A stretch of DNA of 64,000 bases from Eledone cirrhosa. Taxonomy: Eukaryota. The notes under the pieces are model-generated. The model searched no databases, was not told the origin of the DNA, and saw only the letters and a list, made by a program, of their open reading frames with translations. Made by a program: the position numbers and the translations under genes. Location of the stretch: NCBI GenBank assembly GCA_964016885.1, contig OZ024743.1:282720001-282784000 (forward strand), read 5' to 3'. Positions 6,625-57,253 of this stretch are shown here, piece by piece (position 1 is the stretch's first letter; each line of letters begins with the position of its first letter).

Positions 6625-7273
6625 GAGGGGGGTTTTTTTAATGAAAAAAACGAGATGTCCTACACGAGTGAAAGTATAAGGAAAAAAGATGAAATCGAAA
6701 ATGCAATTGGAGTTTTTTTAAGAATAATTATTTGGTTCCTTTACCGGTTTCGCAGTTCTTATGCTTTTCAAAAGTAGAATTGAGATGGAGAGCTTGTGGT
6801 TTTTTTCGCATCTGGTTGGTGTTCTTGTTTTATGTAGAAAAAAGTGGCTCGAAATGCTAGGTTTTTTTAGAAAAGTAGTTTGGTTGGTTTATGACTGTCA
6901 TGTGAATAAGTATAATAATTCCGCGCTAGTTCGTCGCGTTACAAAGTCCTTATTATATTTGCCGGGGGGGGGGGGGGGGGGGGGGCTCAGTTTGTTTTTC
7001 ATATATGAGTGAAATTTGGTTGGTTGGTTGGTGCAGCCACATAAATAAGTATATCAACTTTCGTGCCAGTTCGTATTTGAGGGTTCTTTTCACTTAAAAA
7101 AGTGACTCAAAAAACTTTTTTTATAATCAAATTACATTTATAAAAAAAACTTTTTGAACCACTTTTCTAAGTGAAAAGAACCCTCAAACATGAACTGGCA
7201 TGAAAGTTCATGTGCTTATTCACGTGACTGCACCAACCAACCAACCAAATTTCACTCATATATGAAAAAACAA
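6616..7273 (-). mobile_element. Penelope-like element remnant with a terminal hairpin and a decayed minimal hammerhead
   Basis: Inverted arms at about 6992-7126 and 7137-7273. The minus strand at 6739-6774 reads CTT TTGAAAA GCA TAAGAAC TGC GAAA CCGG TA AAG. The element abuts (TA)n at 6595-6616. Confidence 0.55.
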
Positions 7274-9336: not shown

Positions 9337-9383
<47 letters not shown>

Positions 9384-9547
9384 CAATATGTAAAGATAAC
9401 ACACCAGAGAGAGAGATAGTGCGCCATCAGTCAAACAGGGAAAAACCACCAGTGTATGGAATCTATAGCCCATGGAAGGCAAAGTAGACACACAATAATT
9501 AAAAGTATAAATCAAAGTGCAAATACGTACCTTGATAACTATCTAAC

Positions 9548-9637
9548 ACACACGTACAAATCCAAAAAGATCTGTTTCACCAACTAATTTGTTGACAGAA
9601 ATGATTAGCCTATGGTTCATCAGCATGTGTAAGGCTA
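9548..9637 (-). ncRNA. Type I hammerhead ribozyme, mirror copy, sense to the Lasp transcript
   Basis: Exact reverse complement of 10158-10247. Confidence 0.85.
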
Positions 9638-10157
9638 TACATTTCAGACAACACTAAAAGAATCTAAAGCGACCATCCAGCCACACGTGGTAGAGAGAAA
9701 TTCACAGCGTGCCTAGGGCAGCAACCAGTGGCCTCTGAGGGACGAGCTGCTAGAAAGAGCAGCCCAAAGCACTCGGAGAAATGTGCTCAACGAAACAGAG
9801 AGAGAGAAGATACTGTTATAAGGAGCGAAATATCACGATAAATTAACGGAGCCATAGACTCTTGCCATTCCCTGTATTATAAAGGGCTCGGGATTCCTTC
9901 TCCTTTGAGCACATTAATGACAGGGAATAGAGAGAGTCTATGACTCCGTTAATTTATCGTGATATTTCGCTCCTTATAACAGTATCTTCTCTCTCTCTGT
10001 TTGGTTGAGCACACTTCTCTGAGTGGTTTGGGCTGCCCTTTATAGCAGCTCGTCCCTCAGAGGCCACTGGTTGCTGCCCTAGGCACGCTGTGAATTTCTC
10101 TCTACCACGTGCGGCTGGACGGTCGCTTTAGATTCTTTTAGTGTTGTCTGAAATGTA

Positions 10158-10247
10158 TAGCCTTACACATGCTGATGAACCATAGGCTAATCATTTCTGT
10201 CAACAAATTAGTTGGTGAAACAGATCTTTTTGGATTTGTACGTGTGT
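10158..10247 (+). ncRNA. Type I hammerhead ribozyme with full stem III and GUA cleavage triplet
   Basis: Stem I ACACATG(10165-71)/CGTGTGT(10241-47). Core CTGATGA 10172-78. Stem II ACCA(10179-82)/TGGT(10213-16). GAAA 10217-20. Stem III CAGATCT/GGATTTG. Predicted cleavage after A10240. Possible pseudoknot TAGCCT(10158-63)/AGGCTA(10184-89). Confidence 0.88.
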
Positions 10248-10506
10248 GTTAGATAGTTATCAAGGTACGTATTTGCACTTTGATTTATACTTTTAATTAT
10301 TGTGCGTCTACTTTGCCTTCCATGGGCTATAGATTCCATACACTGGTGGTTTTTCCCTGTTTGACTGATGGCGCACTATCTCTCTCTCTCTGGTGTGTTA
10401 TTTTCTCTACATTTTGTATTATAAAGGGCTCGGGATTCCTTCTCCTTTGAATACATTAATGACAGGGAATAGCGGGAGTCTATGGCTCCGTTAATTTATC
10501 GTGGTA

Positions 10507-10538
<32 letters not shown>

Positions 10539-12539: not shown

Positions 12540-12575
<36 letters not shown>

Positions 12576-12584
<9 letters not shown>

Positions 12585-12945
12585 TGTAAGCTATCGCCGT
12601 ATTTTGACTAAAGAAATTAAAGAAATAATTTAGCCTGATAGTGGGGTTAAGAACCCTCGGAGAAATGGAAAAAGATGAGTATTGACATACATGGGAGTCG
12701 AACTCACATCTTTGGTTATCCGGACCACTGTGCTACCATTTACACCAACACATCATCCGGATAACCAAAGATGTGGGTTCGACTCCCATGTACGTCAATA
12801 CTCATCTTTTTCCATTTCTCCGAGGGTTCTTAACCCCACTATCAGGCTAAATAATTTCTTTAATTTCTTTAGTCAAAATACGGCAATAGCTAACATTTCT
12901 AATAATTTCAAATCCACTCGCTGTTTCGAAAATATTCTTACTTGA
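12576..12945. mobile_element. Head-to-head hairpin element with a tRNA-like head and a ~40-nt one-sided tail
   Basis: 149-bp arms at 12576-12724 and 12756-12904 with few mismatches, a 31-nt loop, and a tail at 12905-12945. (TA)n lies on both sides. Confidence 0.8.
12682..12755 (-). pseudogene. tRNA-like sequence (SINE-type Pol III head), not a canonical tRNA
   Basis: The minus strand reads TGATGTG TTG GTGT AAATGGTA GCAC AG TGGT CCGGATA ACCA AAGAT GTGAG TTCGACT CCCAT G TATGTCA A. It has an A box, D arm, anticodon-like arm, TTCGA T-loop/B box and an acceptor-like stem rich in G-U pairs. Confidence 0.7.
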
Positions 12946-13248
12946 TATATATATATATTAATATATTAATATATATTAATATATATTAATATATATATAT
13001 TAATATATATATATAAATATATATAAATATATATATATAAATATATATAAATATATATATATAAATATATATAAATATATATATATATAAATATATATTA
13101 ATATATATATATATAAATATATATTAATATATATATATATAAATATATATTAATATATATATATAAATATATATTAATATATATATATATTAATATATAT
13201 ATATATATATTAATATATATATATTAATATATATATATATATATATTA

Positions 13249-13320
<72 letters not shown>

Positions 13321-13493
13321 TATATATTAATATATATATATAAATATATATAAATATATATATATAAATATATATAAATATATATATATAAATATATATA
13401 AATATATATAAATATATATATATAAATATATATAAATATATATATATAAATATATATAAATATATATAAATATATATAAATATATATAAATAT

Positions 13494-13530
<37 letters not shown>

Positions 13531-13549
13531 AATATATATATATTAATAT

Positions 13550-13586
<37 letters not shown>

Positions 13587-13605
13587 AATATATATATATT
13601 AATAT

Positions 13606-13642
<37 letters not shown>

Positions 13643-13661
13643 AATATATATATATTAATAT

Positions 13662-13716
<55 letters not shown>

Positions 13717-13735
13717 AATATATATATATTAATAT

Positions 13736-13772
<37 letters not shown>

Positions 13773-13791
13773 AATATATATATATTAATAT

Positions 13792-13824
<33 letters not shown>

Positions 13825-13843
13825 AATATATATATATTAATAT

Positions 13844-13900
<57 letters not shown>

Positions 13901-13919
13901 AATATATATATATTAATAT

Positions 13920-13950
<31 letters not shown>

Positions 13951-13951
13951 A

Positions 13952-13984
<33 letters not shown>

Positions 13985-14063
13985 AATATATATTAATATA
14001 TATATAAATATATATAAATATATATATATAAATATATATTAATATATATATAAATATATATTA

Positions 14064-14094
<31 letters not shown>

Positions 14095-14102
14095 AATATA
14101 TA

Positions 14103-14138
<36 letters not shown>

Positions 14139-14142
14139 TATA

Positions 14143-14178
<36 letters not shown>

Positions 14179-14185
14179 TATATTA

Positions 14186-14218
<33 letters not shown>

Positions 14219-14226
14219 AATATATA

Positions 14227-14262
<36 letters not shown>

Positions 14263-14266
14263 TATA

Positions 14267-14310
<44 letters not shown>

Positions 14311-14314
14311 TATA

Positions 14315-14373
<59 letters not shown>

Positions 14374-14823
14374 TAATATATATATATTAATATATATATA
14401 TATATATATATTAATATATATATATTAATATATATATATATATATATATTAATATATATATATTAATATATATATTAATATATATATATATATTAATATA
14501 TATATATTTATATATTAATATATATATATTAATATATATATTAATATATATATATATATATATATATTAATATATATATATTAATATATATATATATATA
14601 TATTAATATATATATATTAATATATATTAATATATATATATTAATATATATTAATATATATATATTAATATATATATATTAATATATATTAATATATATA
14701 TATATATATTAATATATATTAATATATATATATATATATTAATATATATTAATATATATATATATATATTAATATATATATATTAATATATATATATTAA
14801 TATATATATATTAATATATATTA

Positions 14824-14866
<43 letters not shown>

Positions 14867-14874
14867 TATATATT

Positions 14875-14969
<95 letters not shown>
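12946..14969. repeat. ~2.0-kb pure A/T compound microsatellite, (TA)n punctuated by AAA and TTAA
   Basis: No G or C seen across about 2 kb. ATAAAT and ATTAAT phase shifts recur. Confidence 0.97.
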
Positions 14970-14971
<2 letters not shown>

Positions 14972-15204
14972 GGTAGTTATTGAGGGGGAGTAGACTGGTT
15001 GGAGCAATAATGGTCTTATTTACATATACACATAATATATTTATAGATTATCGTCATCAGCATTTGATGTCCAGTTTTCCATGCTGGTATGAGTGGGGTG
15101 GGTTGTCACTTGCTCGTTCCTTCATTCATTCATTCATTCACACACACAAAATGTTGTATAGAAATTGAGAAGAAGCAGATAGAGAACTGAGAACATTGGA
15201 GAAT

Positions 15205-15380
15205 AATTGTTTCTACTTTTGGCACAAGGCCAACAATTACTCAGTGTATCACTGGTACTTTATTTTATCGACCCCGTAAGAATGAAAGGCAAAGTTAACC
15301 TCGGCGGGATTTGAACTCAGAATGGCAAGGGCCGTACCTCTATGCATCAAAGCATGGCGTCTGACCCTCTACCGATACTG
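15205..15380 (-). mobile_element. tRNA-derived SINE (family A)
   Basis: Closely matches 40934-41120, including B box GAGTTCAAATCC and the GCCTTTCAT.CTTACGGGGTCGATAAAAT domain. Older copies lie near 2115-2330, 4540-4740, 19185-19320, 31320-31480, 43620-43760 and 54470-54600. Confidence 0.85.
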
Positions 15381-15539
15381 CCTCTCTACTCATTGACTTT
15401 AGCAAATCATAGATTTTTTTTTTTAACATTGGAAATTGTTTTAAGCAAAACAGCTTCTAATCTTGACAACATCTAATTTTCAGACATTGACCTACTTAAC
15501 CTTTAGAATGAATCTAAAACACACACACAGACACTTGTT

Positions 15540-20728: not shown

Positions 20729-20981
20729 ATTGAAAGTGTAAGGGTAAATTTTTAAGCTACCTGTAAAGGATTAAATAGGTCATAAAATAACTATTTAAAA
20801 TATGTAATTGCTTGATTAACATAAAATAGTATCAAATAATTTGCAACCAATTTTAAAATGTCAACCATTTATTGGTATTCAGATAAATTGGATCTTGTAT
20901 TTATCCTTGCTTGTGGACAAACAGTATATATGTTTCTTTCATATCTATCATTTGTAAGTAATAAATAAAAAATATATACTC

Positions 20982-21195
20982 TTAACCCTTTAGCATTGAA
21001 ACCGGCTATATCTGGCCAGAATTCTCTCTCCTCTTTCTGTTCAAACCAGCTGTAATTGGCCACACATACTGATGTTACGGTATTGTTCTCAAAATAAATA
21101 ATATCAAGGTCTCATAGATTTGATATTATGTGAGATAAAGCCTTTACTGTGAAAATATAATAGTATATAGAGTAATGTAAATGCTAAAGAGTTAA
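20982..21195. mobile_element. piggyBac-like MITE (~210 bp)
   Basis: TTAA-CCCTTTAGCATT ... AATGCTAAAGAG-TTAA. A TTAA TSD and CCC termini are piggyBac hallmarks. Confidence 0.88.
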
Positions 21196-23209
21196 GATAT
21201 TTTAGGTATACATTTTAAATTGAAAAAACCTTTTCACCAGGTTGAAAACAGTGAAGACAAGTGGTTTAGTGGTTAGGATGTTGGACCGATGATCATTGGT
21301 CTGATTCCTGGACCAAGCAGTGCATTGTGTTCTAAAGCATGTTGCTTTTCATGATAGGAGCCCCTATCATTAAAACACTCAATAAACCTCCTATGGGATA
21401 CAACCTCAAAAAAACGCCAGCTAAACCGCACCCTCCTCGTAAAAATAAATAAATAAATAAAAAAACAGTGAAACAAAAATTTTAAAACCAAAAAATAAAT
21501 GATGAATGTAAAGTTAGTTTTCATGTGCTTTTGACTGACAAAAATGATTTTTCCAGTTTAGTAATTTAGTTTCAACACGGTCTCAGATTAAGTCACTTGT
21601 CTGACAAATACAACTGCAATATTTTAAAATAATTTCTTTAAAAAATATTCAGGTAGCTCACACTCCCCTCAGACTTTCACTCAGACAATCCAATCTGCAC
21701 TGGATTCTCAGGTGAGCTATTTCACCTCCCATAGTCCCTTACTTGCAATCTCTAGCTATAATCACTAGTCCAACTTGCCCATAACAAATTACATAAAGTC
21801 AAAGTCTTAGTTAGTGACACAACTACCCATTAAGAGTTACGAGATATTTTTATTTTAGACCCTGCTGTTTGCTGATATGGATGAGTAAGTTTAGTACACA
21901 TAGTAGTAAAAATCTATGGCCTTGTGCTCACAAAAAAAAATCAATTTTGTTTGAAGTAACAGACATTAGTGATAGGTGGAAGGACAAGAGGTGAGAGGTT
22001 GAAAGTAATGCAGTTCTACAGTGATTTATTAGATATATTATGCTCACAGCTTATACAGTGATCACAGTTTATATATTGTGATTACAGCTTATACAGTGTA
22101 ATCACAGCTTAGTGACCACAAAATTTCAAAAAAAAGCAACTAGGAATGTGCTAAAAGGTAAAAAGGTATGTTTTGACTAACACATGATCTACTCAATACA
22201 AAAATACATTAAAAAATAAATAAAACATACCACAACTTCACAATAGAAAACGTAATATGGTAATGGTCAAAAAACAAACTACAATTACTATCAGTATTAA
22301 TCAAGTATTTGAACATTTACATACATATAGGTGTTCATATATACACCTTGTAACACTTTGTTGGTAAATAAATAGTATATATTTGTAACATCAATGAAAG
22401 TATCAATAAGTGACTCCATATCACCAACAACATAAATGGTTATTGTAACAAGGTCATTGTTTTTACAGGGAAACCCTGAATCAATATATACAAATCAACA
22501 GTAACACTCCTTTTTTTTCTTTTTTTTTTGCTTCAAAGTGATATCAGTTAATTATTAGGTGATTAATAAATTGCCACATCTGTTAGAGGGTAGGACAAAA
22601 TGCCTTGTGGTATTTGTTCCAGGTCTTTGAGCTCAGAGTTCAAATTCATAGCCAATAAAATAAAGTACAAGTCCATGGTAGTGGATTGGCAACATTGTGA
22701 AAGCAATGGAGATACCTTGTGGTGTTTGTTCCAGCTATTTAGATTCTGAGTTCAAATGCTGCTGTGGCATGTTTAAGTGGTCAACTTAATCTGTCACCCA
22801 GTTAAAAACCACTATGTGGCCTTTAGATTAATAGTCCTATGCGAGCAAGACAACCACTCTTGCCTCAAGTGGGAAAACCCCCGTCCAAACCCATGCAAGC
22901 GTGGAACATGGACGCTAAACCTGATGATGATGATGATGATGATGATTTAGTGGAACTCACTCAGGTATAAACATTCAGACTAGATCTCTGGATAAAAGAT
23001 ACCTCCTTCTTTGAACTCAGAATGTGGAGAGAAAACCAAATATAGTAAGGCATTTAATCTGATATTCTAATTTTTCTGCCAACACACTGGCCTGGCAATA
23101 ATTAAATATATAAATCTTAAGTCTCAAAGAGAGGTGGTATATCTTAGTGCATAGCAATCTAACTCGAGAAAACATGGGAAATGCATGTTAAAACTATGGG
23201 GCTGGTGGT

Positions 23210-32764: not shown

Positions 32765-32980
32765 ATAATTGTTTCTACATTTGACACAAGGCAATTTAAA
32801 AGGAAGCGGAAAGTTGATTAAATTGACCCTAGTGCATTATTGGTACTTTATTTTATGAACCCCGTAAGGATGAAAGGCAAAGCTATCCTCAGTGGGATTT
32901 GAATTCAGAACAAAGGGCATAACTATATGCTTCCAAGCAGGTTGCCCAATGCTCTACCAATTCTGCCAATCCACATCCCT
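32765..32980 (-). mobile_element. tRNA-derived SINE (family A)
   Basis: Homologous to 40934-41120. Confidence 0.8.
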
Positions 32981-34181: not shown

Positions 34182-34216
<35 letters not shown>

Positions 34217-34220
<4 letters not shown>

Positions 34221-37200
34221 TCATCTTCGTTTAACGTCCATTTTCCACGCTAGCATGGGTTAGACGGGAGTTGTCCCACTTGAGGCAAGGCTGGTTGGGT
34301 GACCATGTCTCGCTCATATAGGACTATCTGGCAGGCTGCCCTTCCTATCACCAACCACATTTACAGTGTGGAACTGGGAACTTTTTACCGTGTTACCTAC
34401 ACGGCCACATTACAGCGTGGACTGTGTGTGTTTGTTGTCGGGACACCTACACGATCTCATTTTCTCGTGCTGTTGGTGGGAGTGGGACGATAGGGTAAGG
34501 GTAGTGGATTGGGGTGTATATTTAGTTAAGAGGTGCCTACTGACTGTAGGTTTCGCTTTGTACATAGGCAAGGCGGGTCTTCTGTATTACTGCGTAGCGC
34601 CAAAGATCTCGGTCCAGAGACATTGTCTTAGAGAATGTAAGTGTGTGAGGTCGGAATTTATCAGATCATCCCAGGTTTTTCTGGGTCTACCTACTCCGTA
34701 ACTACCATCAATTTTGATCGGCCTGCACTTTTTTATGCAGCTGTCGTCTTTCATGCGCATCACGTGACCATACCAACGTAGGCTTCTCTCAAGTAAACAG
34801 CATCTGATCCCTCTTATTCCTAATTTCTCACTTAGTTCATTTATGCTTTGCCGTTCACGTATATTACTATTACACATCCAACGAAGCATGCATGCTTTGT
34901 TCCTTTCCAGTCTACGCAGGTCCTCTGCACGTAATGCCCATGTCTCACTGCCATGTAGCATTGTTGTTCATATACAGGCATCATACAATCTACCTTTCAT
35001 TTTTAGAGAGAAACCTTTTGTGGCCAACAGCGGTGTAAGCTCTCTGAACTTTTTCCATCCCGTTCTGACTCTGGCTACTGTACTTTCAGAACACCCTCCA
35101 CCACTGCTGATTTCATCACCCAGGTAACGGAAAGTGTCTACTATTTCTATAGAACCATCTGGGCAATAGAAGGAGCTAGTATCCTTTGGACACTTGCTAC
35201 TTATTGCACCTGAGCATTGGCCACATATAAATTCTACGTTCTTAGATAGTTTACCTGTGATCCCACTAGATCTTTTATGTACCCATACTTTGCATTTGGG
35301 ACATAAAATGGAATTTCTGCCTACTCCTTTCCTACACACTGAGCATGGCCATTTCCCTGAGGGCACCTGCGCCCTATTTTCGTTTCTACAAACTAGGACT
35401 TTAGTCTTAGACAAGTTAACTTTAAGGCCTTTTGATTCTAGACCATGCTTCCATGTTTTGAATTTCTTCTCTAGTTCAGCCATTGATTCAGCTATGAGCG
35501 TTAGATCATCTGCGTATAGGAGTTCCCATGGGCAGCCGGTCTTGAACTCCTGTGTTATAGCCTGAAGGGCAATAATAAATAGTAGGGGGCTAAGGACAGA
35601 GCCTTGATGAACGCCAACTTTTATACTAAATTCTTCACAATATTCATTGTTAATTCTAACCTTACTGACTGTTTCATTATACATAGCTTGTATAGCTCTC
35701 ACAAGCCATTCATCTGCACCTAGTTTTCTAAGAGCCCACCAGATAATGGAGCAGGGGACTGTCAAAAGCTTTCTCCAGGTCTACAAAAGCTAAGTAGAGG
35801 GGTTTACTTTTAGCTAGGTACTTCTCTTGTAGTTGTCGTACAAGGAAAAGAGCGTCTGTGGTACTTTTACTTGACACAAACCCAAACTGCATTTCATCTA
35901 GATCAATTCGCTCTCTGATTAGTTGTGCTATAACTCTTTCTGTGACCTTCATGACCTGGTCAACTAACTTAATGCCCCTATAGTTTCCCTTATCTAGAGC
36001 ATCCCCTTTACCCTTGTAGCAGTTGATGATGATGCTGCTACGCCAGTCTTTCGGTATGACCCCATTCTGTATTACTTGGTTAACTATACGGGTGACCATA
36101 GTGTCCCACCATACCAGATGCCTTCAACATCTCAGCAACTATCTCCGAAGGCCCAGCTGCCTTGCCTGTCTTCATATCCTTGATTGCCTTACTTATTATA
36201 CTACCTTTAACTTGCACCGCTGGTCCTTCTATTTGATCGATTTGGGGCAGACTATCTTTTTCCCATTTATTCTCCTCATTTAATAGTCTCTCGTAGTGAC
36301 ACTTCCAGGCTATCTTCTTATCAGTATCAGTGAGCGCAAGTACACCATTATCATTACGAACACACTTCTCCCCGACAATATCACGGTTTTCCTTGACACA
36401 TTGTCTAGCAATCCTGAACACCTCACGTTTTTGGTCCTCATGTTGTAGAACATGCTTGAACTTTTTGCAAGGTACACTTGTCTCCTAGCTTCTCTCCTGG
36501 CCACTTGATAGTGCTCTCTACTTTTCCCATCCTGCCATACTTTCCAAGCCTGCTTTTAGGCCTTGATTGTCTCTTCTACCTTACTGTTCCACCACCAAGT
36601 TACTCTCCTCCTGCCAATAGGTCTGCTCCAGCCACAGATTTCATCCGTTGCTTTCAGCAGGTTCACTTTCAAGAATTGCCATTGTTCCTCTATATTGCAC
36701 GTCTCTAATTGCTCTTCCTTATTGTCAAAGGCATCAAGTAATAAGCTTTTAAATTTGTCACTGGCTATGGGGTCCTTCAACTTCCATATTCTTCTCAAGG
36801 TAGGCTTCCTCTGTCGTCGAGTACGTCTATTCCTGACTATGAGGTCACTAACTACTAGGCTATGTTGGGAGGTGCATTCTTCACGGGGGAGGGATTTAGT
36901 GTTTACAACAGTCATTTTGTCCCGTCTTCTAGTAAGGATATAATCTATCTGGCTGGCGTGTTCCCCTGAGCTATAGGTGATCAAGTGGTTTTCATGTTTT
37001 TTGAAGTTTGTGTTACAGATAGTTAGGCTATTTGCGTCACAGAATTCCAGGATTCTGAAGCCCTCCTCATTTCTATTTCCAACCCCATAGCCTCCATGGA
37101 TTCCATCATAGCCATCACTATGTTGTCCAACGTGACGTTTAGATCGCCAGCAATAATTAAGTAGTCACTGTCGGTTATTTGGGAGGTAGTGTGCATTAGC

Positions 37201-37771
37201 ATCTCATAGAACCTGTCCTTTATAACATCAGGTAGACCAGATTGGGGTGCATAAGCAGATATTATTGTCACAGTAGTTCTATTTAGAACTAGTCTTAATT
37301 CAATTATTCTGTCATTCACTCTATTTACGTCAATTACCTTATCTACCCATTTTTCAGCTAACATAATTCCTACACCACCCTGCCCGTTGTCATTTCCCAC
37401 CCAGAAAAGTTTATAGCATCGTTTTTTACCCACGATGAATCTGGCAGACGCCCCTTTCCACCTAGTCTCTTGAATACAACAAACATCAACTTCTTTACGT
37501 TCAAGCATTTCTACAACCTCATTTGAGCGACCTTTCAATGTGCCTACATTCATGGTACCAACTCTGAAGTGAGGAAAGTGGGATGGATGGGTTGGAAGGG
37601 CAGGGAGGGGTGTGGGAGATGGGATTTTGTTGGTCATCTGTGTCTGAAATAAAGAGGGGTCCTTGTATTCTCGTCTTGCAGCGGGAGGTGAATTTATCTT
37701 TATCTGTGACATTGTCATTGAGTGCTTAGACTTTTCAAATTTCCACAGTCAACCCATCAAACAGGTCTAAA

Positions 37772-38221: not shown

Positions 38222-39020
38222 AATAATGATGATAATAATATATAATAATAATAATGAAATTATTGTGTACAGTGCTCAGGTGCACTACAACTCATCAAAG
38301 GTGCATGTATAGTACGTAGAATAACGTTCAATTGTCAGGAAAATGAACAGTGTACGAGTTGTGAAATACATGTGTGCGTGTGCATGGAGGTATAGTGTTG
38401 GTGAATCTCAGGGCAGTGTCTCGAAAGCTAACAACTGATGCAGGTAGTTTGTTCCATGCTTCAGCAATTCTGAGCGTCAAAAAAATGTTTCCAAAAGTCA
38501 TGGGAGCTGTTTTGTTTTCTGACTGTGGGCATGCCCACCTGTGTTAGACACATGGAAATCAAAAAGGTGCTCAGGGTTGTTGTTGTTGGCAAGATGGTTA
38601 ATAATTTTGTGGGTGTTTACCAAGTCAGTTGCCAGACGTCGGAGCTTCAATGTATCCATACCCAAGGAAACAAGGCGTTCAGAGTATGGTAGATGCCTGA
38701 TGGAGGGTATTCGCTTGGTTGCACGTCTCTGAACAGTTTCCAGGCGGTCAATGTTCTGAGCAAGATAGGGGTTCCAGACTGGTGATGCAAATTCTAAGTG
38801 TGGCTGCACCATAGCTAAAATAGATAGCTGGAGAGCCGCTGACAAAGTCTTGCTGAGTGATGCTAAAACACCCTCGGCCTTCTTGACAATTTTAGAGACG
38901 TGCTTCGTCCAATGCAAATCGCTGCTGACAGTAATGCTCAGGTCTCGCAAGAAGACTTCTTGATATTAGTGTTGTGGAGGGAGTATGTGGATGCTGGGTT
39001 TTTACTCCCAAAATGCATGA
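38222..39020 (-). mobile_element. CR1-clade LINE 3' fragment
   Basis: ORF 38498-38950 reads RDLSITVSSDLHW..HV, VQPHLEFASPVWNPY, LETVQRRATK, LPYSERL..L..L..RRL, typical of the CR1 post-RT region. (TAT)n tail at 38222-38255. Confidence 0.9.
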
Positions 39021-39112
39021 TGAACATAAAGAATATGCCTATAATAATCTTGGAATATTGAAGTTATTCTACGACTGATTACATAAATCTATAAAATCAG
39101 TTCAACTAAAGT

Positions 39113-39311
39113 TTAACCCTTTAGCATTTAAACCAGCCGTATCCAGCCAGAATTCTCTTTCTGTTCAAACCAACCATAACTGGCCACTCAAACTGATGTT
39201 AAGGTATTGTTCTCAAAATAAATAATATCAAAATCTCAGATTTGTGAGATAAAGCCTTTACCACAAAAATACAATTGTAAATATAGAGTAATATAAATGC
39301 TAGAGGGTTAA
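39113..39311. mobile_element. piggyBac-like MITE
   Basis: TTAA-CCCTTTAGCATTTA ... TAAATGCTAGAGGG-TTAA. Confidence 0.88.
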
Positions 39312-40917: not shown

Positions 40918-40933
40918 GTTAGAAATAAATAAT

Positions 40934-41120
40934 TGTTTCTACTTTAGGCACAAGGCCAGCAATTACCCAGTGCATTACTGGTACTTTATTTTTATCGACC
41001 CCGTAAGGATGAAAGGCAAAGTCAACCTCGGCGGGATTTGAACTCAGATCGTAAAGGGACGTAACTATGCTGGAAAGCATGGCGTCCGACCCTCCACCGA
41101 TACTGCCAATACACCGCCCT
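40934..41120 (-). mobile_element. Young tRNA-derived SINE (family A) with 18-bp TSD
   Basis: TAGTTAGAAATAAATAAT occurs at 40916-40933 and 41121-41138. A box TGGCAGTATCGG and B box GAGTTCAAATCC are on the minus strand. Confidence 0.92.
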
Positions 41121-41670: not shown

Positions 41671-42104
41671 TTAATCGCTTGATACTAAACTGGCTGAAAC
41701 TGCCCCTGGTTCGACAATACAAAGCTATTTGTTTAAAAAAAAAAAAACTCCTGTCGTAATTTTATGTAAGAAACTTTATTAACCCTTTAGCATTTACATT
41801 ACTCTATATTTACTATTGTATTTTCGCGGTAAAGGCTTTATCTCAATATCGAATCTATGAGATTTTGATATTTATTTTTAGAAAATACTTTAACATCAGT
41901 ATGAGTGGCTGGTTACAGCCGGTTTAAACAGAAAGTGGCGAGACAATTCTGGCTGGATACAGCCGGTTTAAATGTTAAGGGGTTAAGTTATGCTCCAAAT
42001 ACCAACTTAATAAGAAACTTACTCTGAATTCTTGATTACTTTCAAAATTAATTGAAAATCATAGGCAGTGTCTTTCATTAAAAATATGATAATGAAAGGG
42101 TTAA
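41671..42104. mobile_element. Older piggyBac-like MITE (second family) containing a nested younger MITE at 41779-41986
   Basis: Outer ends TTAA...GAAAGGG-TTAA, with relatives near 33361-33588, 27040-27266 and 3210-3425. The inner element reads TTAA-CCCTTTAGCATTTA...TAAATGTTAAGGGG-TTAA. Confidence 0.75.
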
Positions 42105-42651: not shown

Positions 42652-43381
42652 ATAAAAACAAATAACGAAACGAAATTAAATTTTGTTTCGTTTGTAACTC
42701 ACTTTTGTATGACTGACGCTTAAACAATTAAGTTAAAAAATGTACATCCACATATGTATACTGAAATACTAGTATGCATATGAATACACACACGTATACA
42801 TATGTAGATGTACCAAGTTTTTCACTGGTCACTTTACTGTGAGTGTCCAGCTATTCTGTATGTAAACACACAGACAAACCGGTTTTTAGAGTCATACTGG
42901 TTTTTGAGGAAACACCTTTCCTCTATTCTCCAGAAAGCCAGACAAGGAATATTGAACTAGTTTCGTTGTTGTTACAACTCATCAGCAATATTTACCTATC
43001 TTCCGGCCTTTCTGGAGAATCGTAAAAGCACATATCGTTATATGCTTTTTCTATGAAAATTAGTAGTGGGCAGACTAATTTGCATAGAGCGTGAGTACGT
43101 ACCGGTTCAACGGAGACGATAAAAACAAATAACGAAACAAAATTAAATTTCGTTTCGTTTGTAACTCACTTTTGTATGACTGACGCTTAAACAATTAAGT
43201 TAAAAATGTACATCCACATATGTATACTGAAATACTAGTATGCATATGAATACACACACGTATACATATGTCGATGTACCAAGTTAAAACTTGGTACATC
43301 TACATATGTATACGTGTGTGTATTCATATGCATACTAGTATTTCAGTATACATATGTGGATGTACATTTTTAACTTAATTG
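42652..43381 (-). mobile_element. Non-coding hammerhead-bearing retroelement (Penelope-like/retrozyme-like): 467-nt unit, 167-nt direct repeat, inverted 5' copy and TSD
   Basis: Direct repeats at 42652-42819 and 43119-43285. Inverted copy at 43286-43381. TGATCAATATATAAA is duplicated at 42642-42656 and 43380-43394. Confidence 0.9.
42948..42992 (-). ncRNA. Minimal type I hammerhead ribozyme with palindromic stem III and GUU triplet
   Basis: The minus strand reads AATATTG CTGATGA GTTGT AACA ACAAC GAAA CTAG TT CAATATT. It has a perfect 7-bp stem I, a 5-bp stem II, an intact core and an ACTAGT palindrome. Predicted cleavage is between 42955 and 42954. Confidence 0.9.
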
Positions 43382-47732: not shown

Positions 47733-50700
47733 AATAATAATAATAATAATGATTTCTTTATTGGCCACAAGGGCTGACATCAAGAAAAACATCACAGACG
47801 GCACAGGACGGTACGATGTGGGTTTTGTGCATGTAAAGATTTTTATTATTTATATAAGAAAAGAAAAAAAAACAGAAACATATATATATAAACAATAAAA
47901 ATGAAAATTGAAACAATGAAAAATTCCCCAATAGGGGGGAAACCTCCGAGGGTTACTCGTGGTGAAAACCACACAAAAGACCACGGCCACCCTGACCACC
48001 AGGGCATGCGCCCTCTCTCAATTTTTCCATCTCTCAAACTACAGACATATATTCAGAGCGGTCTCGTTCACTCTGACCATTCTTGCTGTATTCACACACC
48101 TTTCAACAAATTTGCTAAAAAGCAGCACTTGCCTCTCCACCCTGATTTTCCTCTTCAAGTGAAACTTGAAAAAGTTAATTAGGGATTCGCCGAAGAGGAA
48201 AGTGCCCGTCTTTAACCCTTTCAACCTTGTCCACCACACAATCTCTTTCGCCATGGCCGCCAGGCAGATGAAAACTGCCTGCCCTTCCGCCTCGAAGGAA
48301 GACGGTGAGACCATCTGCACAATGGACTCAGTCGATAACCGGATCAGTCCTACACGTGACAGCAACTGTTCGACATAGCTCCACAAGTCAGCAATGCTCG
48401 GGCACTGAACGAGTGCGTGCACAACGGTTTCGTCGCTCTGCGCGCATCTATGACAGGCTCGGCTGACGGCACTTCCGTGCCTGTAGAGCTTATCTTGAAC
48501 CGGCAGCGCTCCCCGGTAGCACTGCCAGGCCAGGGATTTTTGGAAGTTATCCATAGGCCCTGGGTTGAAAGTTCTCCGGAAGAGAGCAAACAGCTGATCT
48601 TCTTCGATACCCAGGATCTCTCTGAGAACGTCGTCGTTCTTCCCCTCCACTAGTCCTCTATAGAACGCCGAGGTGGATGTTCCACCGATAGTGGTGCCCA
48701 GCTGGCAGAGGGCAGTGAGCACCTGGAGACATTCCAGTTTCCAACCGCTATCCCTCGGTCTTTTACTGACCCAGGACTGCAGCTCCGTCAAGGAGACGAG
48801 CTGTGGGAAAACGTGCCTGGCGAACGGCGACCACACTTGTTCACCATCAAAGAACACCAGAGATGTCGCAGCCTCAGCGCATGTTTGTGCATCATCAGCC
48901 ATGGCATGCCCAGTCCCCCACGCAACGGATGTTGACAGCAGATGGATCGTCTGACCATGGGAGCGCGTGCCTTCCACAAAAAGTGGAAGAGGAGGCACTC
49001 CATTTTGGTGAGAGTTGGGCCGGGGCCAGGGACGACGGTGAGGCGGTAGCAGATGACGGATGCAATGTACGCAATCGCCACCTCCACCCGGCCTTTCAGG
49101 GACAGCTTCCTCTCGGCCCATTTCTGGGTGAAGGAGGCCACCTTGCTCGTCACCTCGTCCCAGTTTTTCTCCATCTGGAGGTCCAGTCCAAACCAGACCC
49201 CAAGCAATTTAACCGGTCCGTCCGTTCAACGCCGCACGACGCTATCGGATGGCATGGACTTGCCTCTCCAGATGCCGAGCTGCAAGCCCACCGACTTTTC
49301 CTGGTTTATCTTTGCTCCTGTCACCGCTTCGTATTCCTTGAGAGCGGTGCCGAGCATCTGGACGTGTCTGGTGCTCGACACCACCACGGTGACGTCGTCG
49401 GCATAAGTCAACTCGGATTTCCCGCATCCTAGTTCGCGTGGGACGCCCCTCATCGCCCCCAGTTTGTGCAGTAACAGCTCAAGAGCCAATACGTACAAAA
49501 GGGACGAGAGAGGACAACCCTGGCGGACTGAGTGCATGATGCTGAACGGCTGCGACAAGTGACCATTCACCCTCACAACTGAGCAGACATCGCTGTATAT
49601 CGCAGCGATCCAACCCCTGAAAACGGGCCCGAAACCAGCTGCCTCGAGGACCGCCGCCAGGTATCGATGGTCGACCCTATCGAATGCTTTGGATTGATCC
49701 AAGTTGATCAGGGCCCCACCCGTGCCAGGTTCCTTAACCACCCTCTCTATGATGTATCGCATGAGGTGGAGGTTGTCGTGTATGGATCTGTCCGGAATGG
49801 CGCATGTCTGCGTCTTTCTCACCAGACCCTTGATGACAAGCGCCAACCTCGTTGCTAACACCTTGGCCAAAATCTTGAACTTTGCGTTTAGCAGGGTTAT
49901 GGGCCTGAAATTATCGATAACATCCCCCTTGTTCAGGTCTTTTCTCAGCAGCGCCACCGCTCCCCGGCTCACAAAACTGGGAGTGCTCCCAGTTTCAGTA
50001 GACATCTGCCAAGAGGTCACCGAACAAGTCTGGCATAAATGCATAAAGCTCGTAGAGCAGACCATCCAAACCTGGCGATTTACTCCTCGTGCAGTTAGTC
50101 ATCGCTTCCTGTATTTCACTGTCTGTTATTGGCTTTTCGCAACACTGTGCTGCGGTCGTCGAGAGCCGAGGCAGTCCATCGAGGTATGCACTGAAGTCCA
50201 TGCCCCGATCCGGGCCGCCGCTCCCGAACAGTTCAGCAAAGTGCTGCTGAAAAGCTTCACACATCTGCTCGAGTTCGAGCAACACACACCCATTTTGGTC
50301 AGACAAAGACCGAATTGTGGCTTTGTTGCCACGTCGCGCCTCTGCCACCCGGGCCCATTGAACAGCTTTTGTCTCCTCGTGTTTCAGAGCACGCGCTCTA
50401 GCTCTGACAACGCAGCCTTCGTGTTTTGCGTTGAAGAATTGGTCAAGTGCCAATCTCGTCGCAAGCACGTCGGTTGCGATGCCTGTCCTAAAGGCCTCTT
50501 CTAGCTTTCTGACTAACTCTCCCTCTACTCTATTTTCCTCTATCACTAGTCCTTTGCTAAACCTAATCGACTACTTTAATTGCCCTTTTCAGGGCGAACC
50601 ACCACCTGTTGTTGACGACCGCTCCCGTCAACACCTGCTTAACTAATACGCTAATCCGGTCTCTGTAGGCTTTGCGCACCGGAAAAGACGCGTTCAACTT

Positions 50701-52556
50701 CCAGTAACCGGGCCCTTGTCTATGAAGTCTGTCTATGTCGATCTCACAGATCACAAATTTGTGGTCTGTGTAGTCGACTATTTTAAATTGTGGACAATTT
50801 ATACTAGCCTTATCTAGTTCTCTGCAGAATACCCTATCGAGATATGATCTGGATGACCCGATGCGGTTTGTCCATGTCCACATTGGCACATTCGGGTGAT
50901 CCAGTCGATACCTGTCAGACAGTTCAAAACGTCTGAGCAGGTTGTGAGGCTCTTGCACCCTACTCCCCTATCCACTAGCCCCACACAATCCCAGTGTGCA
51001 TCCAAGATACCGTTCCAGTCGCCCACTAACACTAAAGAGCGGGACGTTCCAAGAAAGGTCTCTAGACGTCTGAAGAAATCTGACCGTCCTGCCCATGTTG
51101 GGGCATAGACGGCTACTAGCCTGAAAGCATTGCCTTCGTTGCCAGTCACATCCAGCACCACCGACTTACCTTCTGGTGTGTGTGTTTTGTTTTGTTTGCG
51201 TTGTTGGTGTTTTTGGTGATGCTGGTGGTGGTGCGGTTGTTGTTGGCGGTGGTGCTTGTGGTGGTGATGGTGTTGCTGCAAGTTTCCTTGCTGCCTGTCC
51301 CCGTCTTTGTGTGCCTTCTAAGGGTTTTTTTTCTTTTTTGTGACAGACCGTTTGCCACTTCACTCCCACCTCAAACTCCATGTCAGATTCCGTGGCGTCT
51401 GGGAGGGGTATGTGCTCCACGGCTGTTGGTGGTGGTAGTGGAGCCCTCTTCGGCAATTTTGTTGCTGATGTATCTACTTCAAATGTAGCTATTGGTGTTG
51501 CCGCCACTGATGCTGCTGCTTTAGTTGTCCATGGCCTTGGTACAGGTGCCACGGACGTTGCCCTCCTACTCACCGTGGAAGGGGCTTCTGCGTTTGTTGC
51601 CTGGCCTGCTCTTGGTAGCAGCAGACCAGGTATTGGAAGGAGAGGGGCCTCCTTCTTCGCTGTCTTCTGCGGGCAAAAGGCCCTGAAGTGACTCTTCGAC
51701 CCACAGAGATAACATTTTGGCCGTCTTCCTTCTACGCTTATAGGGACTTGGAGTCCTTCCTCGATGTCTAAGATATCAGAGATAGCGTTGATACATTCCT
51801 GGTCAGTTTGTATAAGCATTTGCATGCCTACACCTGACCAGTTCTCTCTCCCTATTTTCTCTACTTGCAGCATGGTCGTCCTGTCCTTGATTCCAGCAAG
51901 GACAGACGCGGCCAGCCAAAGTATGGGCACGTCGGGTGGGACCTGGGTCACTTTGACCCTCACAATTTTCTGCCCGCAGTAGGAGGGCACCAAGACTATC
52001 TCCTCACTCTTTAGGGTTTCCAAAGAGTGAGACTTCGCTTCCTGGGGGGAGTGGCGAAAAGTATGTCTACTGTGGCGTACTTTCTGCCTCGGGTGATGTG
52101 GGTTTTGTGTCCTCAGACGCACCCCAAGGCCTTTGGGATTTGAGCCTCTGTGGCTCTCTCCACCCGATGTGAAATTTTGCTTACGGTGCAGTAAGTCACC
52201 CTCCGTAGCTGCTGGTCCTTGAAAAAAAAAAAAAAAAAAAAAATCGGGTGGAGGTTTCAGGGAGACTATTGGCGCTTCTTGTCACCATGGCCCTTGCGAC
52301 TGCCATCTCCTCTGTGACTAACACTGTCTCGATATTTTGGGCGACACCTGCAAAAGAAGTGGTCCCTTTTTCAGCAGCACCACTATTGCTGCCGCTACTG
52401 GTCTTACTGGTGGTGCTGAGATCGCTGTTACACGTATCGATGTCATTGTTGATGTTTTCGTTGGTACTGTTGGTGTTGTTGTTTTCGTTGATACTGTTAT
52501 TGTGGCTGTTGTTATTATTGTTGTTTTTGTTGATACTGTTCCTACTATTATTGTAA
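47733..52556 (-). mobile_element. Tx1/L1-clade LINE, near full-length and degenerate: ORF1 with CCHC knuckle, ORF2 EN-RT-Zn finger
   Basis: ORF1 has CYLCGSKSHFRAFC (51166-52122). Endonuclease motifs VAVYAP, LVGDWN, SYLDRVF and TDHK, then GPGYWKLN and KSPGLDGL. RT motifs NFRPITLLN, LDQSKAFDRVDH, VRQGCPLS and YADD. C-terminal CHRC...ETVVHALVQC. (TAT)n tail. Several frameshifts. Confidence 0.93.
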
Positions 52557-54651: not shown

Positions 54652-54880
54652 TTAACCCTTTAGCATTTAAACCGGCCATATCCGGCCAGAATTCTCTCAC
54701 CTCCTTCTATTCAAACCAGCAATAACTGGTTCCTTATGCTTACATTAAGGTATTGTTCTCAAAATAAATAATACCAAAATCTCATAGATTCGATATTATG
54801 TGAGATAATTGTGTGAGGTAAAGTCTTTTCTGTGAAAATACAATAGTAAATACAGAGTAATGTAAATGCTAAAGGGTTAA
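54652..54880. mobile_element. piggyBac-like MITE with perfect TIRs
   Basis: TTAA-CCCTTTAGCATTTA ... TAAATGCTAAAGGG-TTAA. Confidence 0.9.
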
Positions 54881-56414
54881 TATGCCCAAGATGCATTGTA
54901 TGTCACAACAGTTCACCTAAAGCTCCATTGGGAGCTGGAGGCTCAAAGGAGGATGAAAACCAACACATCCATTATCTATTGGGTTGGACACAATATTTCT
55001 GTTCTTGATCTGTACCTTTTTATTCTTGAATTTAAAAGGATTGGTTATAATTTTATAACAAACATATTTTTTCCAAAATGAATTGAAATGAAAATAAAAC
55101 CTTTTTGAATAATGGAGATAGAAAATTAAGCAGGGAGATATTTTTTTTTAAATTGTTTAATTTTATATAGGGTTTATAAAATTGTATATGAAGATGCATG
55201 ACTTAGTGATATAAATGTTTGACTCACAATTATAAGATCATGAATTCGATTCTCAGACTGGGTAGCACATTGTATCTTTGAGCAAGACATTACTTCATGT
55301 TGTTCCAGTCCATTCAGCCTGAACATTTGAGTTTCAATGACAAGTGCCAAGCTGTGTGTCTCTTTCATAGACAATATCAGTGGCATGGAGAAGCAAGATT
55401 GGTATACATGGGAAACTGCTTGCATTCTACAAAACTGCTTGCATTCTACAAAACATCTTGCCCGGGCTTGTGTCTTGGAGAGTAAATTTCCAGGTACAAA
55501 CCCATAGTCAGTCATGTCTAAAGGAGGGGGGGGGGGGTATAAAACTGTAGGAAAATGACCAACTAATAATTTCCCTTCCAAGGATGCCCTCCCAAACAGG
55601 TTTATATGCCAATATTTCTTTATAAATTCATTATTTTTTACCTCAGGTTATAAGTCTTTAAAAAAATAATCACATTAATATTCTTCAAAAGACAAAAGAA
55701 TGGTTTATCACTATATTCATTAAATATTTCAATCCTTCTCTCAGATCTATACCAATTTGTTTTCTTCAATCTGGCAATTCCTAAGGGTTTTTTTAACCAA
55801 CTTATGAGAAAATAAAAAGTGGCTACAGGGATCCATTAAGATCCATTTCAATAATGTCACTGATGCATCATCCCATTCTATTAATGCTTAAGTGCAAATA
55901 TATTTTATTTTATTTCATATATTCCTTTTGGCAAAAATAGTGATAAGCTTCATTTGCCTGGAGCAATGATCTATAATTACAATATTGATGATGATGATAA
56001 AAGATACATACACACACACACACACCATACACATCATACACACATACATACCTTACATGCATTTTATGATTGGGTTTTCCATGGATTGAATTATATATCA
56101 TGAATTATTGAAGCACTGGTGATTTGAAATTTGAAAGTATGGAAATCCCAAATAGGGAAAACAACAGTAACAGTCAATCACTAGAAATAATAGCTTAGAA
56201 AATTGGGTAAAATACTACTATAGATGGAAAGAATATGGCCAGCAGTCACTATGGAGAATCAAACTCCGTATCTCTCAAATCCCATGCAAGGTCATTAATC
56301 ATTAATTTAAGGGGCAACTGACTAGCCATTCTGTCTAAACTAAGGTTCTATATTGAAGAGATACAGAGTTCAATATTTTTGTAGCAGCTGCTGGTCCTTT
56401 TTTTTTCTATATAA

Positions 56415-56924: not shown

Positions 56925-57253
56925 GTGTGGTAAAAAAAAAACAGGTGGACCATAATGCACCAGAGTACTTGATACTTGGGGTAATAGAGTGGATAATATG
57001 AAAAGATTCAGGACCCCGACAGCTGTACTCCGGCCATTTTGAAAGCTAGATCTGAATGCATTCGACCAGAGGTCAGTTGTCAGGGTCCTGAAATTTTTCA
57101 TATATATATACCCATCAAATGGTGTTTTTCATTACACTTTCTTTCATGTATCACCTTCCATAGTCCATGTCTCTTACCATCATCATTATTATTATTATTA
57201 TTGAGGCTGTCATTATTATTAGTATTACTACTGTTATCATCATCATTATTATC

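What the first reader, a model, noticed from the sequence alone, without database searches (positions are those of the whole stretch)
12576..12945. tRNA-headed element integrated with Penelope-like geometry: a possible Penelope-dependent SINE
Seen: the minus-strand copy starts exactly at the 5' end of a 74-nt tRNA-like fold (12755 to 12682) and continues about 105 nt. The plus-strand copy starts mid-tRNA at 12756, repeats the body and extends about 40 nt further. There is no poly-A, (GAT)n or (TAT)n LINE-type tail, unlike the other SINEs here. Known: SINEs normally borrow LINE 3' ends and insert as single direct copies with TSDs, whereas an inverted truncated 5' copy plus a 30-40-nt tail is the Penelope signature. 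Inference: a Pol III-driven short element mobilised by a Penelope-type enzyme, a pairing I do not recognise as well described.
Basis: partly seen in the sequence, partly recalled or inferred. Interest (0 to 1): 0.75.

Follow-up and report, generated by a model that had tools for sequence, protein, structure and literature searches.

The report
tRNA-bearing repeat with Penelope insertion marks
This is one mirror-image insertion of an abundant short repeat that carries a tRNA-like gene inside it, and its shape suggests that it is likely copied around the genome by the enzyme of a Penelope-type jumping gene rather than by the LINE enzymes that ordinary tRNA-derived repeats use.

Summary
Observation confirmed: two back-to-back arms in (TA)n share 147 nt (5 mismatches); one holds a whole tRNA-like fold, the other starts mid-tRNA and has a 41-43-nt tail. 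It is not a one-off. 2,456 reads of one run and 2,454 contigs of another lie on it. 11 of 14 listed joints are inversions, 7 of them at the tRNA's 3' edge. This is Penelope-like (PLE), not LINE, geometry.

The 'SINE' label needs correcting. Other copies continue 5' of the tRNA with a leader predicted to pair with the trailer. A T5 run, terminator-like for Pol III, follows the tRNA. One contig shows a 242-nt head-to-tail unit. No hammerhead core is visible.

Best reading: a non-autonomous PLE-mobilised element with an internal tRNA-gene cassette (0.65). Pol III transcription, fixed 3' ends and the partner enzyme are untested. Closest known: schistosome Smα, animal retrozymes, Cassandra/Helenus. 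Seven literature searches found no tRNA-bearing, hammerhead-free PLE parasite; Repbase/Dfam were not available. The scan noted similar tRNA/PLE repeats before in two other genomes. New variant; interest 0.58.

The parts
12540..12577 (.). (TA)n target, left flank
12578..12755 (-). Left arm: whole tRNA-like segment plus 104-nt body, no tail
12682..12755 (-). tRNA-like segment with A-box-like (about 12747-12736) and B-box-like (12703-12693) motifs; degenerate anticodon loop
   Evidence: ARAGORN; Rfam RF00005 34.5 bits; box scan
12680..12699 (-). T-arm / acceptor 3' edge: hot spot of inversion and truncation breakpoints in other copies
   Evidence: tables 5 and 7; clustering test
12664..12678 (-). 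Trailer containing the T5 run (12673-12669), predicted to pair with the 5' leader seen in other copies
12756..12945 (+). Right arm: starts at tRNA position 32, repeats the body, carries the tail
12903..12945 (+). One-sided 41-43-nt tail
12946..14970 (.). 2-kb degenerate (TA)n array, right flank

Best explanation
This is one two-armed insertion of an abundant non-coding repeat that carries a tRNA-like cassette inside its unit, likely copied from RNA into a (TA)n site by the enzyme of a Penelope-like element. Shown: the arms, the tail, the TA flanks, the high copy number, the many inversion joints, the upstream leader, the T5 run and the lack of a hammerhead core in the visible sequence. Inferred steps: (1) a source locus, probably a head-to-tail unit of about 240 nt, gives an RNA on the tRNA strand, either from Pol III leaking through the first T5 (as Cassandra runs from one small-RNA cassette to the next) or from outside read-through; (2) the PLE protein nicks both strands of AT-rich DNA and starts reverse transcription from both ends at two internal RNA sites about 41-43 nt apart, the stretch between them being the tail; (3) the two cDNAs usually stall at the 3' edge of the folded tRNA domain and are joined at short palindromic microhomologies, giving the inverted pair. 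This copy would be a dead end: the arm with both promoter boxes has no tail, and the arm with the tail has no A box.
For: Geometry matches the PLE description (inverted 5'-truncated copy, one-sided 30-40-bp tail, (TA)n target; PMC8557442). The tail as the distance between two internal RT start sites, with both strands cut and extended, is shown in vitro for an anole PLE (PMC11167929). Both outer ends are 3'-side ends and the arms duplicate 147 nt. Family data: 2,456 reads laid of 12.47 million read in X13, and 2,454 contigs in X1. 11 of 14 listed joints join opposite strands; 4 of the 11 occur in both X1 and X13 (different samples and studies). 7 of the 11 have both ends in 12680-12699; random sets reach that 0 of 100,000 times, or 2 of 100,000 under a narrower null. 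Three listed joints run back on the same strand, one giving a period of 99+143 = 242 nt (X6). 7 X1 contigs break at 12692 into TA repeats. Both arms share minority family states at 12722 and 12649, and the 5 differences split 3 and 2 between the arms, as expected for one template and equal ageing. The leader pairs with the trailer at -17.0 kcal/mol on the tRNA strand against -10.8 on the other; all 4 differences are T/C, i.e. G-U pairs on the tRNA strand; 30 of 18,280 window stretches pair as well. LINE-driven SINEs almost never invert (1 of 5,554 Alu; PMC2912911). In the same window an ordinary SINE-like family sits as single direct copies, one with a visible TSD, and a hammerhead-bearing element with the same inverted TA-flanked layout lies 2 kb away.
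Against: No autonomous partner is identified. 5 of 6 body/tail/trailer motifs had no hit in the Naiad/Chlamys/Hydra supplement; the one hit is 11 nt at the end of a non-cephalopod Naiad. The octopus Naiad 3' ends look unlike the tail by eye. The tail and both 3' ends were read in this one copy only, so fixed start sites are not shown. Only 67 of 2,456 X13 reads carry a listed inversion joint; this is a lower bound and gives no fraction of inverted copies. Fold-back reads can be library artefacts, and 7 of the 11 joints occur in one run only. The tandem period rests on one contig from another organism (X6), plus one X1 contig with unknown spacing. 196 X13 reads (probably one locus) show a different upstream sequence from 12752. 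The T5 run argues against a simple Pol III SINE transcript. The clustering window and the leader test were chosen after seeing the data.
Confidence: 0.65

Rival explanations
1. A true Pol III SINE in the first reader's sense: a monomeric Pol III transcript starting about 15 nt before the tRNA, reading through T5 and ending after the tail, mobilised by a PLE. The tandem contigs are secondary.
For: A- and B-box-like motifs are intact. A leader of about 15 nt starting on a purine is compatible with a Pol III start (established knowledge, recalled). T5 is the only run of 4 or more T in either arm, so one leak would carry Pol III to the tail.
Against: T5 lies 9 nt after the tRNA, and none of the 40 variant rows shown (of 85) falls in it. 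Loose sequence beyond 12740 has median length 54 nt in X1 and is 88 nt in X6, longer than a head plus 15-nt leader, and one contig is tandem.
Confidence: 0.15
2. An ordinary retrozyme or pLTR-derived non-autonomous PLE that captured a tRNA gene as passive cargo, with a hammerhead (canonical or permuted) in the part of the unit not seen here.
For: The 242-nt period lies in the retrozyme range of about 170-400 nt. A hammerhead element with the same layout is 2 kb away. The leader, tRNA and T5 together look like a whole tRNA gene. About 6-16 nt of the unit were not seen, and the tail holds a GAAA.
Against: No CUGAnGA on either strand of 12570-12960. The one near-match is antisense and varies among copies at 12635 and 12641. 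All hammerhead permutations need this block next to two stems.
Confidence: 0.1
3. A LINE-dependent tRNA SINE whose inverted copies arise by twin priming or by later fold-back in unstable (TA)n arrays.
For: tRNA-like head. RTE, Tx1/L1-like and CR1-like LINE remnants are in the window. The share of single direct copies is not measured.
Against: No poly-A or simple-repeat tail and no match of the 3' end to the LINE remnants in the window. Twin priming inverts rather than duplicates most of the element (established knowledge). Inversion is 1 in 5,554 for Alu. The breakpoints cluster at the tRNA 3' edge.
Confidence: 0.07
4. A fold-back DNA element (MITE-like) or an assembly artefact.
For: Near-perfect 147-bp inverted repeat, TA flanks, and MITE-like families in the window.
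Against: The arms differ at 5 sites split between them, the ends are asymmetric, and the centre varies among copies (11 joints).
Confidence: 0.03

Closest known systems
Non-autonomous PLEs, e.g. Chlamys-dependent MRC1; Naiad insertion structure (Craig et al. 2021, PMC8557442; passages, one section and supplement searches seen)
   Same: Inverted 5'-truncated copy, one-sided tail, (TA)n target, tandem copies, no canonical hammerhead
   Different: No tRNA cassette is reported there ('tRNA' occurs once in the text, for Sec; 0 times in the supplement). No 3' similarity to an autonomous family was found here.
Schistosome Smα / Sjα SINE-like repeats (review PMC6765202 and PMC8490949, passages; the primary 1998 paper was not read)
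   Same: Short tandem non-coding retroelement with an internal Pol III promoter, where one unit drives the next
   Different: Smα carries a type I hammerhead; none is visible here. The passages seen do not describe PLE-type inverted insertion for Smα. This element has a full tRNA-like fold with leader and T5.
Animal non-LTR retrozymes (PMC7229834, passages; bioRxiv 10.64898/2026.07.22.740005, part 1 of 5 and term search)
   Same: 170-400-nt unit, tandem, proposed to be non-autonomous PLE derivatives
   Different: Defined by a type I hammerhead in each unit. The preprint has 0 occurrences of 'tRNA' or 'polymerase III'.
TRIMp3: Cassandra, Helenus, Ajax (Kojima 2024, PMC10886601; abstract, passages, Discussion)
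   Same: Small-RNA-gene-derived Pol III promoter inside a repeated end; transcript from one cassette to the next (Cassandra)
   Different: Those use LTR machinery (PBS, PPT, 4-5-bp TSD). This element shows PLE geometry and has no LTR pair.
tRNA-derived SINEs (SINE2), including the octopus OK/OR families (names recalled; the 1994 paper was seen only as a reference)
   Same: tRNA-related segment with A/B boxes, short, high copy
   Different: No LINE-type tail; inverted two-armed insertion; tRNA not at the family's 5' end; internal T5. The sequences of the octopus SINEs could not be compared.

Membership tests
tRNA-derived SINE (SINE2) | tRNA-related segment with A and B boxes | tested here: met
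tRNA-derived SINE (SINE2) | tRNA segment forms the element's 5' end | tested here: not met
   leader in X13, X1, X6 and a tandem contig in X6; true for this copy only
tRNA-derived SINE (SINE2) | LINE-related 3' end or poly-A / simple-repeat tail | tested here: not met
   ends on the TA target; no match to LINE remnants in the window; the genome's other LINEs were not available
tRNA-derived SINE (SINE2) | Single direct copies with TSD | tested here: inconclusive
   not so for this copy or the 11 inversion joints; family fraction not measurable
tRNA-derived SINE (SINE2) | Transcribed by Pol III | not testable with these tools
   needs Pol III occupancy or RNA end mapping
Non-autonomous PLE | Inverted 5'-truncated copy joined at the 5' side | tested here: met
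Non-autonomous PLE | One-sided 30-40-bp tail | tested here: met
   41-43 nt in this copy; other copies' 3' ends not read
Non-autonomous PLE | Tandem or partial-tandem organisation (pLTR) | tested here: inconclusive
   3 of 14 listed joints run back on the same strand; the 242-nt period comes from one contig
Non-autonomous PLE | AT-rich / (TA)n target | tested here: met
   both flanks; 7 X1 contigs break into TA
Non-autonomous PLE | 3' similarity to an autonomous PLE | tested here: inconclusive
   no convincing match in the Naiad/Chlamys/Hydra set; Penelope/Poseidon and Neptune families of this genome were not available
Non-LTR retrozyme | Type I hammerhead in each unit | tested here: not met
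   no CUGAnGA in the visible unit; about 6-16 nt unseen
Non-LTR retrozyme | Circular monomer RNA | not testable with these tools
   needs RNase R and divergent RT-PCR
TRIMp3 (Cassandra/Helenus/Ajax) | Two direct LTRs with PBS, PPT and 4-5-bp TSD | tested here: not met
   arms are inverted and abut
MITE / fold-back DNA element | Fixed symmetric TIRs and a constant centre | tested here: not met
   asymmetric ends; 11 different centres

The most novel reading that the evidence does not exclude
A third class of Pol III parasite: a Penelope-mobilised, hammerhead-free element in which a captured tRNA gene (leader, A/B boxes, T5) supplies the promoter and the RNA ends in place of the ribozyme, transcribed from one tRNA cassette through to the next in a tandem source. 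It would be the PLE counterpart of SINEs (LINE-driven) and TRIMp3 (LTR-driven), and the folded tRNA domain would act as a built-in roadblock that records where PLE reverse transcriptase stalls.
Probability: 0.35. Interest if true: 0.8.

Novelty: new variant of a known kind. Interest (0 to 1): 0.58.

Why it matters
Pol III-promoted parasites are described for LINEs (SINEs) and for LTR elements (TRIMp3). For PLEs the described parasites are hammerhead retrozymes and short pLTR derivatives. A tRNA-bearing, hammerhead-free family would fill that gap and give a 240-nt natural substrate for asking what a PLE protein needs in trans: no ribozyme, two internal start sites, a structured roadblock. The clustered breakpoints are a genomic record of where the enzyme stalls and how the two cDNAs are joined, a step still open in the in vitro work. 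Such families would also be mis-annotated as SINEs, tRNA genes or MITEs.

Tried and rejected
No whole genome was held, so copies could not be collected and scored. BLAST found no second copy in the window. Motif scans found 0 matches in metagenome contigs (2 patterns), prokaryote genomes and viral contigs. The run search gave 'no RNA holder listed'. Sequence look-up in earlier findings gave 0 windows, and none near. Libraries deposited elsewhere, Repbase and Dfam could not be seen and may already hold this family. The bioRxiv retrozyme supplement could not be seen. The 11-nt match of the tail end to the end of Naiad_Smim was rejected as probable chance: nothing upstream matches and the host is not a cephalopod. 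The Rfam miRNA hits only reflect the hairpin and lie below gathering. A functional tRNA-Ser(GGA) was rejected: no long variable arm, a pyrimidine at 37, and indels in the D loop and acceptor among copies. Contig ends at 12692 in X4 and X6 were not used as evidence, because a variant 30 nt away explains them. A precise RT stop at the T-loop adenine (12698) was considered, but the breakpoints spread over 12680-12699. No 3' likeness was found to the neighbouring hammerhead element or the other palindromes (best 12 nt).

Full report
Observation. The sequence shows two abutting arms pointing away from each other: minus 12755->12578 and plus 12756->12945. They share 147 nt without gaps and differ at 5 sites. 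The minus arm begins with a tRNA-like segment (ARAGORN; Rfam RF00005 34.5 bits against gathering 29, the only gathering-level hit in the window) with A- and B-box-like motifs. The plus arm starts at tRNA position 32 and has a 41-43-nt tail. Both ends run into (TA)n; the right array is 2 kb, so no TSD can be read. The tRNA segment does not fold better than shuffles (z 0.58) and is best called a pseudo-tRNA. The genome is an AT-rich animal genome with RTE, Tx1/L1-like and CR1-like remnants. 'Octopus-like' is my inference from the repeat landscape and is echoed by unchecked earlier notes.

Family. No genome was held and the window has no second copy, so I laid four public runs (4 of the 15 listed) on the minus arm. 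2,456 reads of 12.47 million read were laid in a RAD library (X13) and 2,454 contigs in X1 (same species label); 6 and 4 contigs were laid in two other organisms (X4, X6). With an assumed genome near 2.7 Gb and unbiased sampling this would mean thousands of arms; RAD bias makes it a rough figure. Of 14 listed joints, 11 join opposite strands and 3 run back on the same strand. Four inversion joints occur in both X1 and X13, which are different samples and studies; the other 7 occur in one run. Only 67 X13 reads carry a listed inversion joint, a lower bound because both sides must be long enough and seen at 2 or more starts. By eye, three more loose-end rows (behind 12684, 12685, 12693) also read as inversions. 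Seven of the 11 joints have both ends in 12680-12699, the T-arm and acceptor 3' edge; random sets reach this 0 of 100,000 times, and 2 of 100,000 under a narrow null (window chosen after the fact). X13 depth falls from about 1,800 to about 1,100 across the same stretch, and 7 X1 contigs break at 12692 into TA repeats. Short palindromes lie there in the majority sequence, and most joints show 2-4 shared letters. Both arms of the window copy carry the same minority states at 12722 and 12649, and their 5 differences split 3 and 2 relative to the family majority. This fits one insertion from one template, aged about 1.7% per arm, and not an assembly fold-back.

Other copies do not stop at the tRNA 5' end. 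A shared leader follows in 326 X13 reads (agreement 0.85), 37 X1 contigs (0.64) and one X6 contig; X4 shows only its first 3 letters, and 196 X13 reads (agreement 0.98, probably one locus) show a different upstream sequence. The leader is complementary to the trailer after the tRNA: -17.0 kcal/mol on the tRNA strand against -10.8 on the other. All 4 differences are T/C, giving G-U pairs, and 30 of 18,280 window stretches pair as well (X6 version only). This marks the tRNA strand as the RNA strand. The G-U pairs may reflect selection on the stem or A-to-I editing written back, a reading taken from earlier notes on this genome and not tested. The trailer holds the only run of 4 or more T in either arm (T5); none of the 40 variant rows shown, of 85, falls in it. 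By established knowledge (recalled) such a run ends Pol III transcription, so a plain Pol III transcript would lack the body and tail. One X6 contig runs head-to-tail with a period of 242 nt, and one X1 contig also runs back from head to 3' end. About 6-16 nt of such a unit remain unseen. No CUGAnGA occurs on either strand of 12570-12960. The 3' ends of other copies were not read, so the tail is known from this copy alone.

Mechanism. PLE insertions typically have an inverted 5'-truncated copy, a one-sided 30-40-bp tail and, for Naiads, (TA)n targets (PMC8557442: passages; section 15). An anole PLE protein cuts and extends both strands of AT-rich DNA, starts at two internal RNA sites that bound the tail, and does not need hammerhead cleavage (PMC11167929: parts 1-2 of 4). 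LINE-driven SINEs almost never invert (1 of 5,554 Alu; PMC2912911: abstract and passages). I therefore infer PLE mobilisation in trans, with both target ends priming cDNA 41-43 nt apart on one RNA, stalling mostly at the folded tRNA domain, and joining by microhomology. The RNA source is inferred to be a tandem locus read from one tRNA cassette into the next. In-window controls agree: a hammerhead-bearing element with the same inverted TA-flanked layout at 9377-10510, and an ordinary SINE-like family in single direct copies, one with a TSD. No partner was found. Five of 6 motifs are absent from the Naiad/Chlamys/Hydra supplement and the sixth is an 11-nt match to a non-cephalopod Naiad end. 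Octopus Naiad ends look unlike the tail by eye.

Known systems. Schistosome Smα repeats are tandem, SINE-like, apparently Pol III-transcribed and carry a hammerhead (PMC6765202 and PMC8490949, passages). Animal retrozymes are proposed PLE parasites defined by hammerheads (PMC7229834 passages; bioRxiv 10.64898/2026.07.22.740005 part 1 of 5 and term search). Cassandra, Helenus and Ajax put a small-RNA promoter inside LTRs (PMC10886601: abstract, passages, Discussion). All hammerhead permutations need the CUGAnGA block (PMC10085705 passages). The element works like a non-autonomous PLE but fails defining tests for SINE2, retrozyme, TRIMp3 and MITE. Seven searches (listings seen, selected papers opened) gave no description of a tRNA-bearing, hammerhead-free PLE parasite. 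The library lacks most subscription papers, Repbase and Dfam, so the family may be catalogued there. The scan itself noted similar tRNA/PLE repeats in two other genomes; these notes are unchecked and are not counted as support.

Verdict. A real, high-copy element with PLE-type geometry as a family trait; a new variant of the non-autonomous PLE kind, with the tRNA cassette internal rather than a plain SINE head. Confidence in the best reading 0.65. With the monomeric Pol III rival and the hidden-hammerhead rival, PLE mobilisation overall is about 0.9. Interest 0.58.

Noticed in passing
window 9377-10510: Retrozyme-like insertion: inverted arms 94% alike, 93-nt direct repeat (9873-9965 / 10415-10507, unit about 542 nt), hammerhead core at 10172 (+) and 9623 (-), (TA)n on both sides.
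   Followed up: partly
window 12946-14970: 2-kb degenerate (TA)n array with TT/AA interruptions, far longer than the left flank.
   Followed up: no
window 6995-7269: 275-nt palindromic element, arms 88% alike, just after a long G run.
   Followed up: no
window 42652-43381: Mixed direct (168 nt, 98%) and inverted (190 nt, 98%) duplication with a hammerhead-like core at 42985 (-); possibly another PLE-type insertion.
   Followed up: no
window 20981-21203, 39109-39311, 41771-41987, 54652-54883: About 215-nt MITE-like family with terminal inverted repeats.
   Followed up: partly
window 15202-15382, 32821-32980, 40928-41107: SINE-like family in single direct copies; the 40928 copy shows a TSD of about 18 bp.
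   Followed up: partly
window 34208-37748 (-), 48039-52281 (-), 57223-59214 (+), 38498-38965 (-): Broken RTE-like, Tx1/L1-like (two copies, 77% alike) and CR1-like LINE remnants; labels from recall of their motifs.
   Followed up: no
window 60000-60314: 93-nt tandem repeat, 3.4 copies, 92% matches.
   Followed up: no
window 12740-12755, copies: Many copies (X13, X4, X6) have 2 extra bases in the acceptor 5' strand, which by eye would lengthen the acceptor stem to 9 pairs at the expense of the T stem.
   Followed up: no
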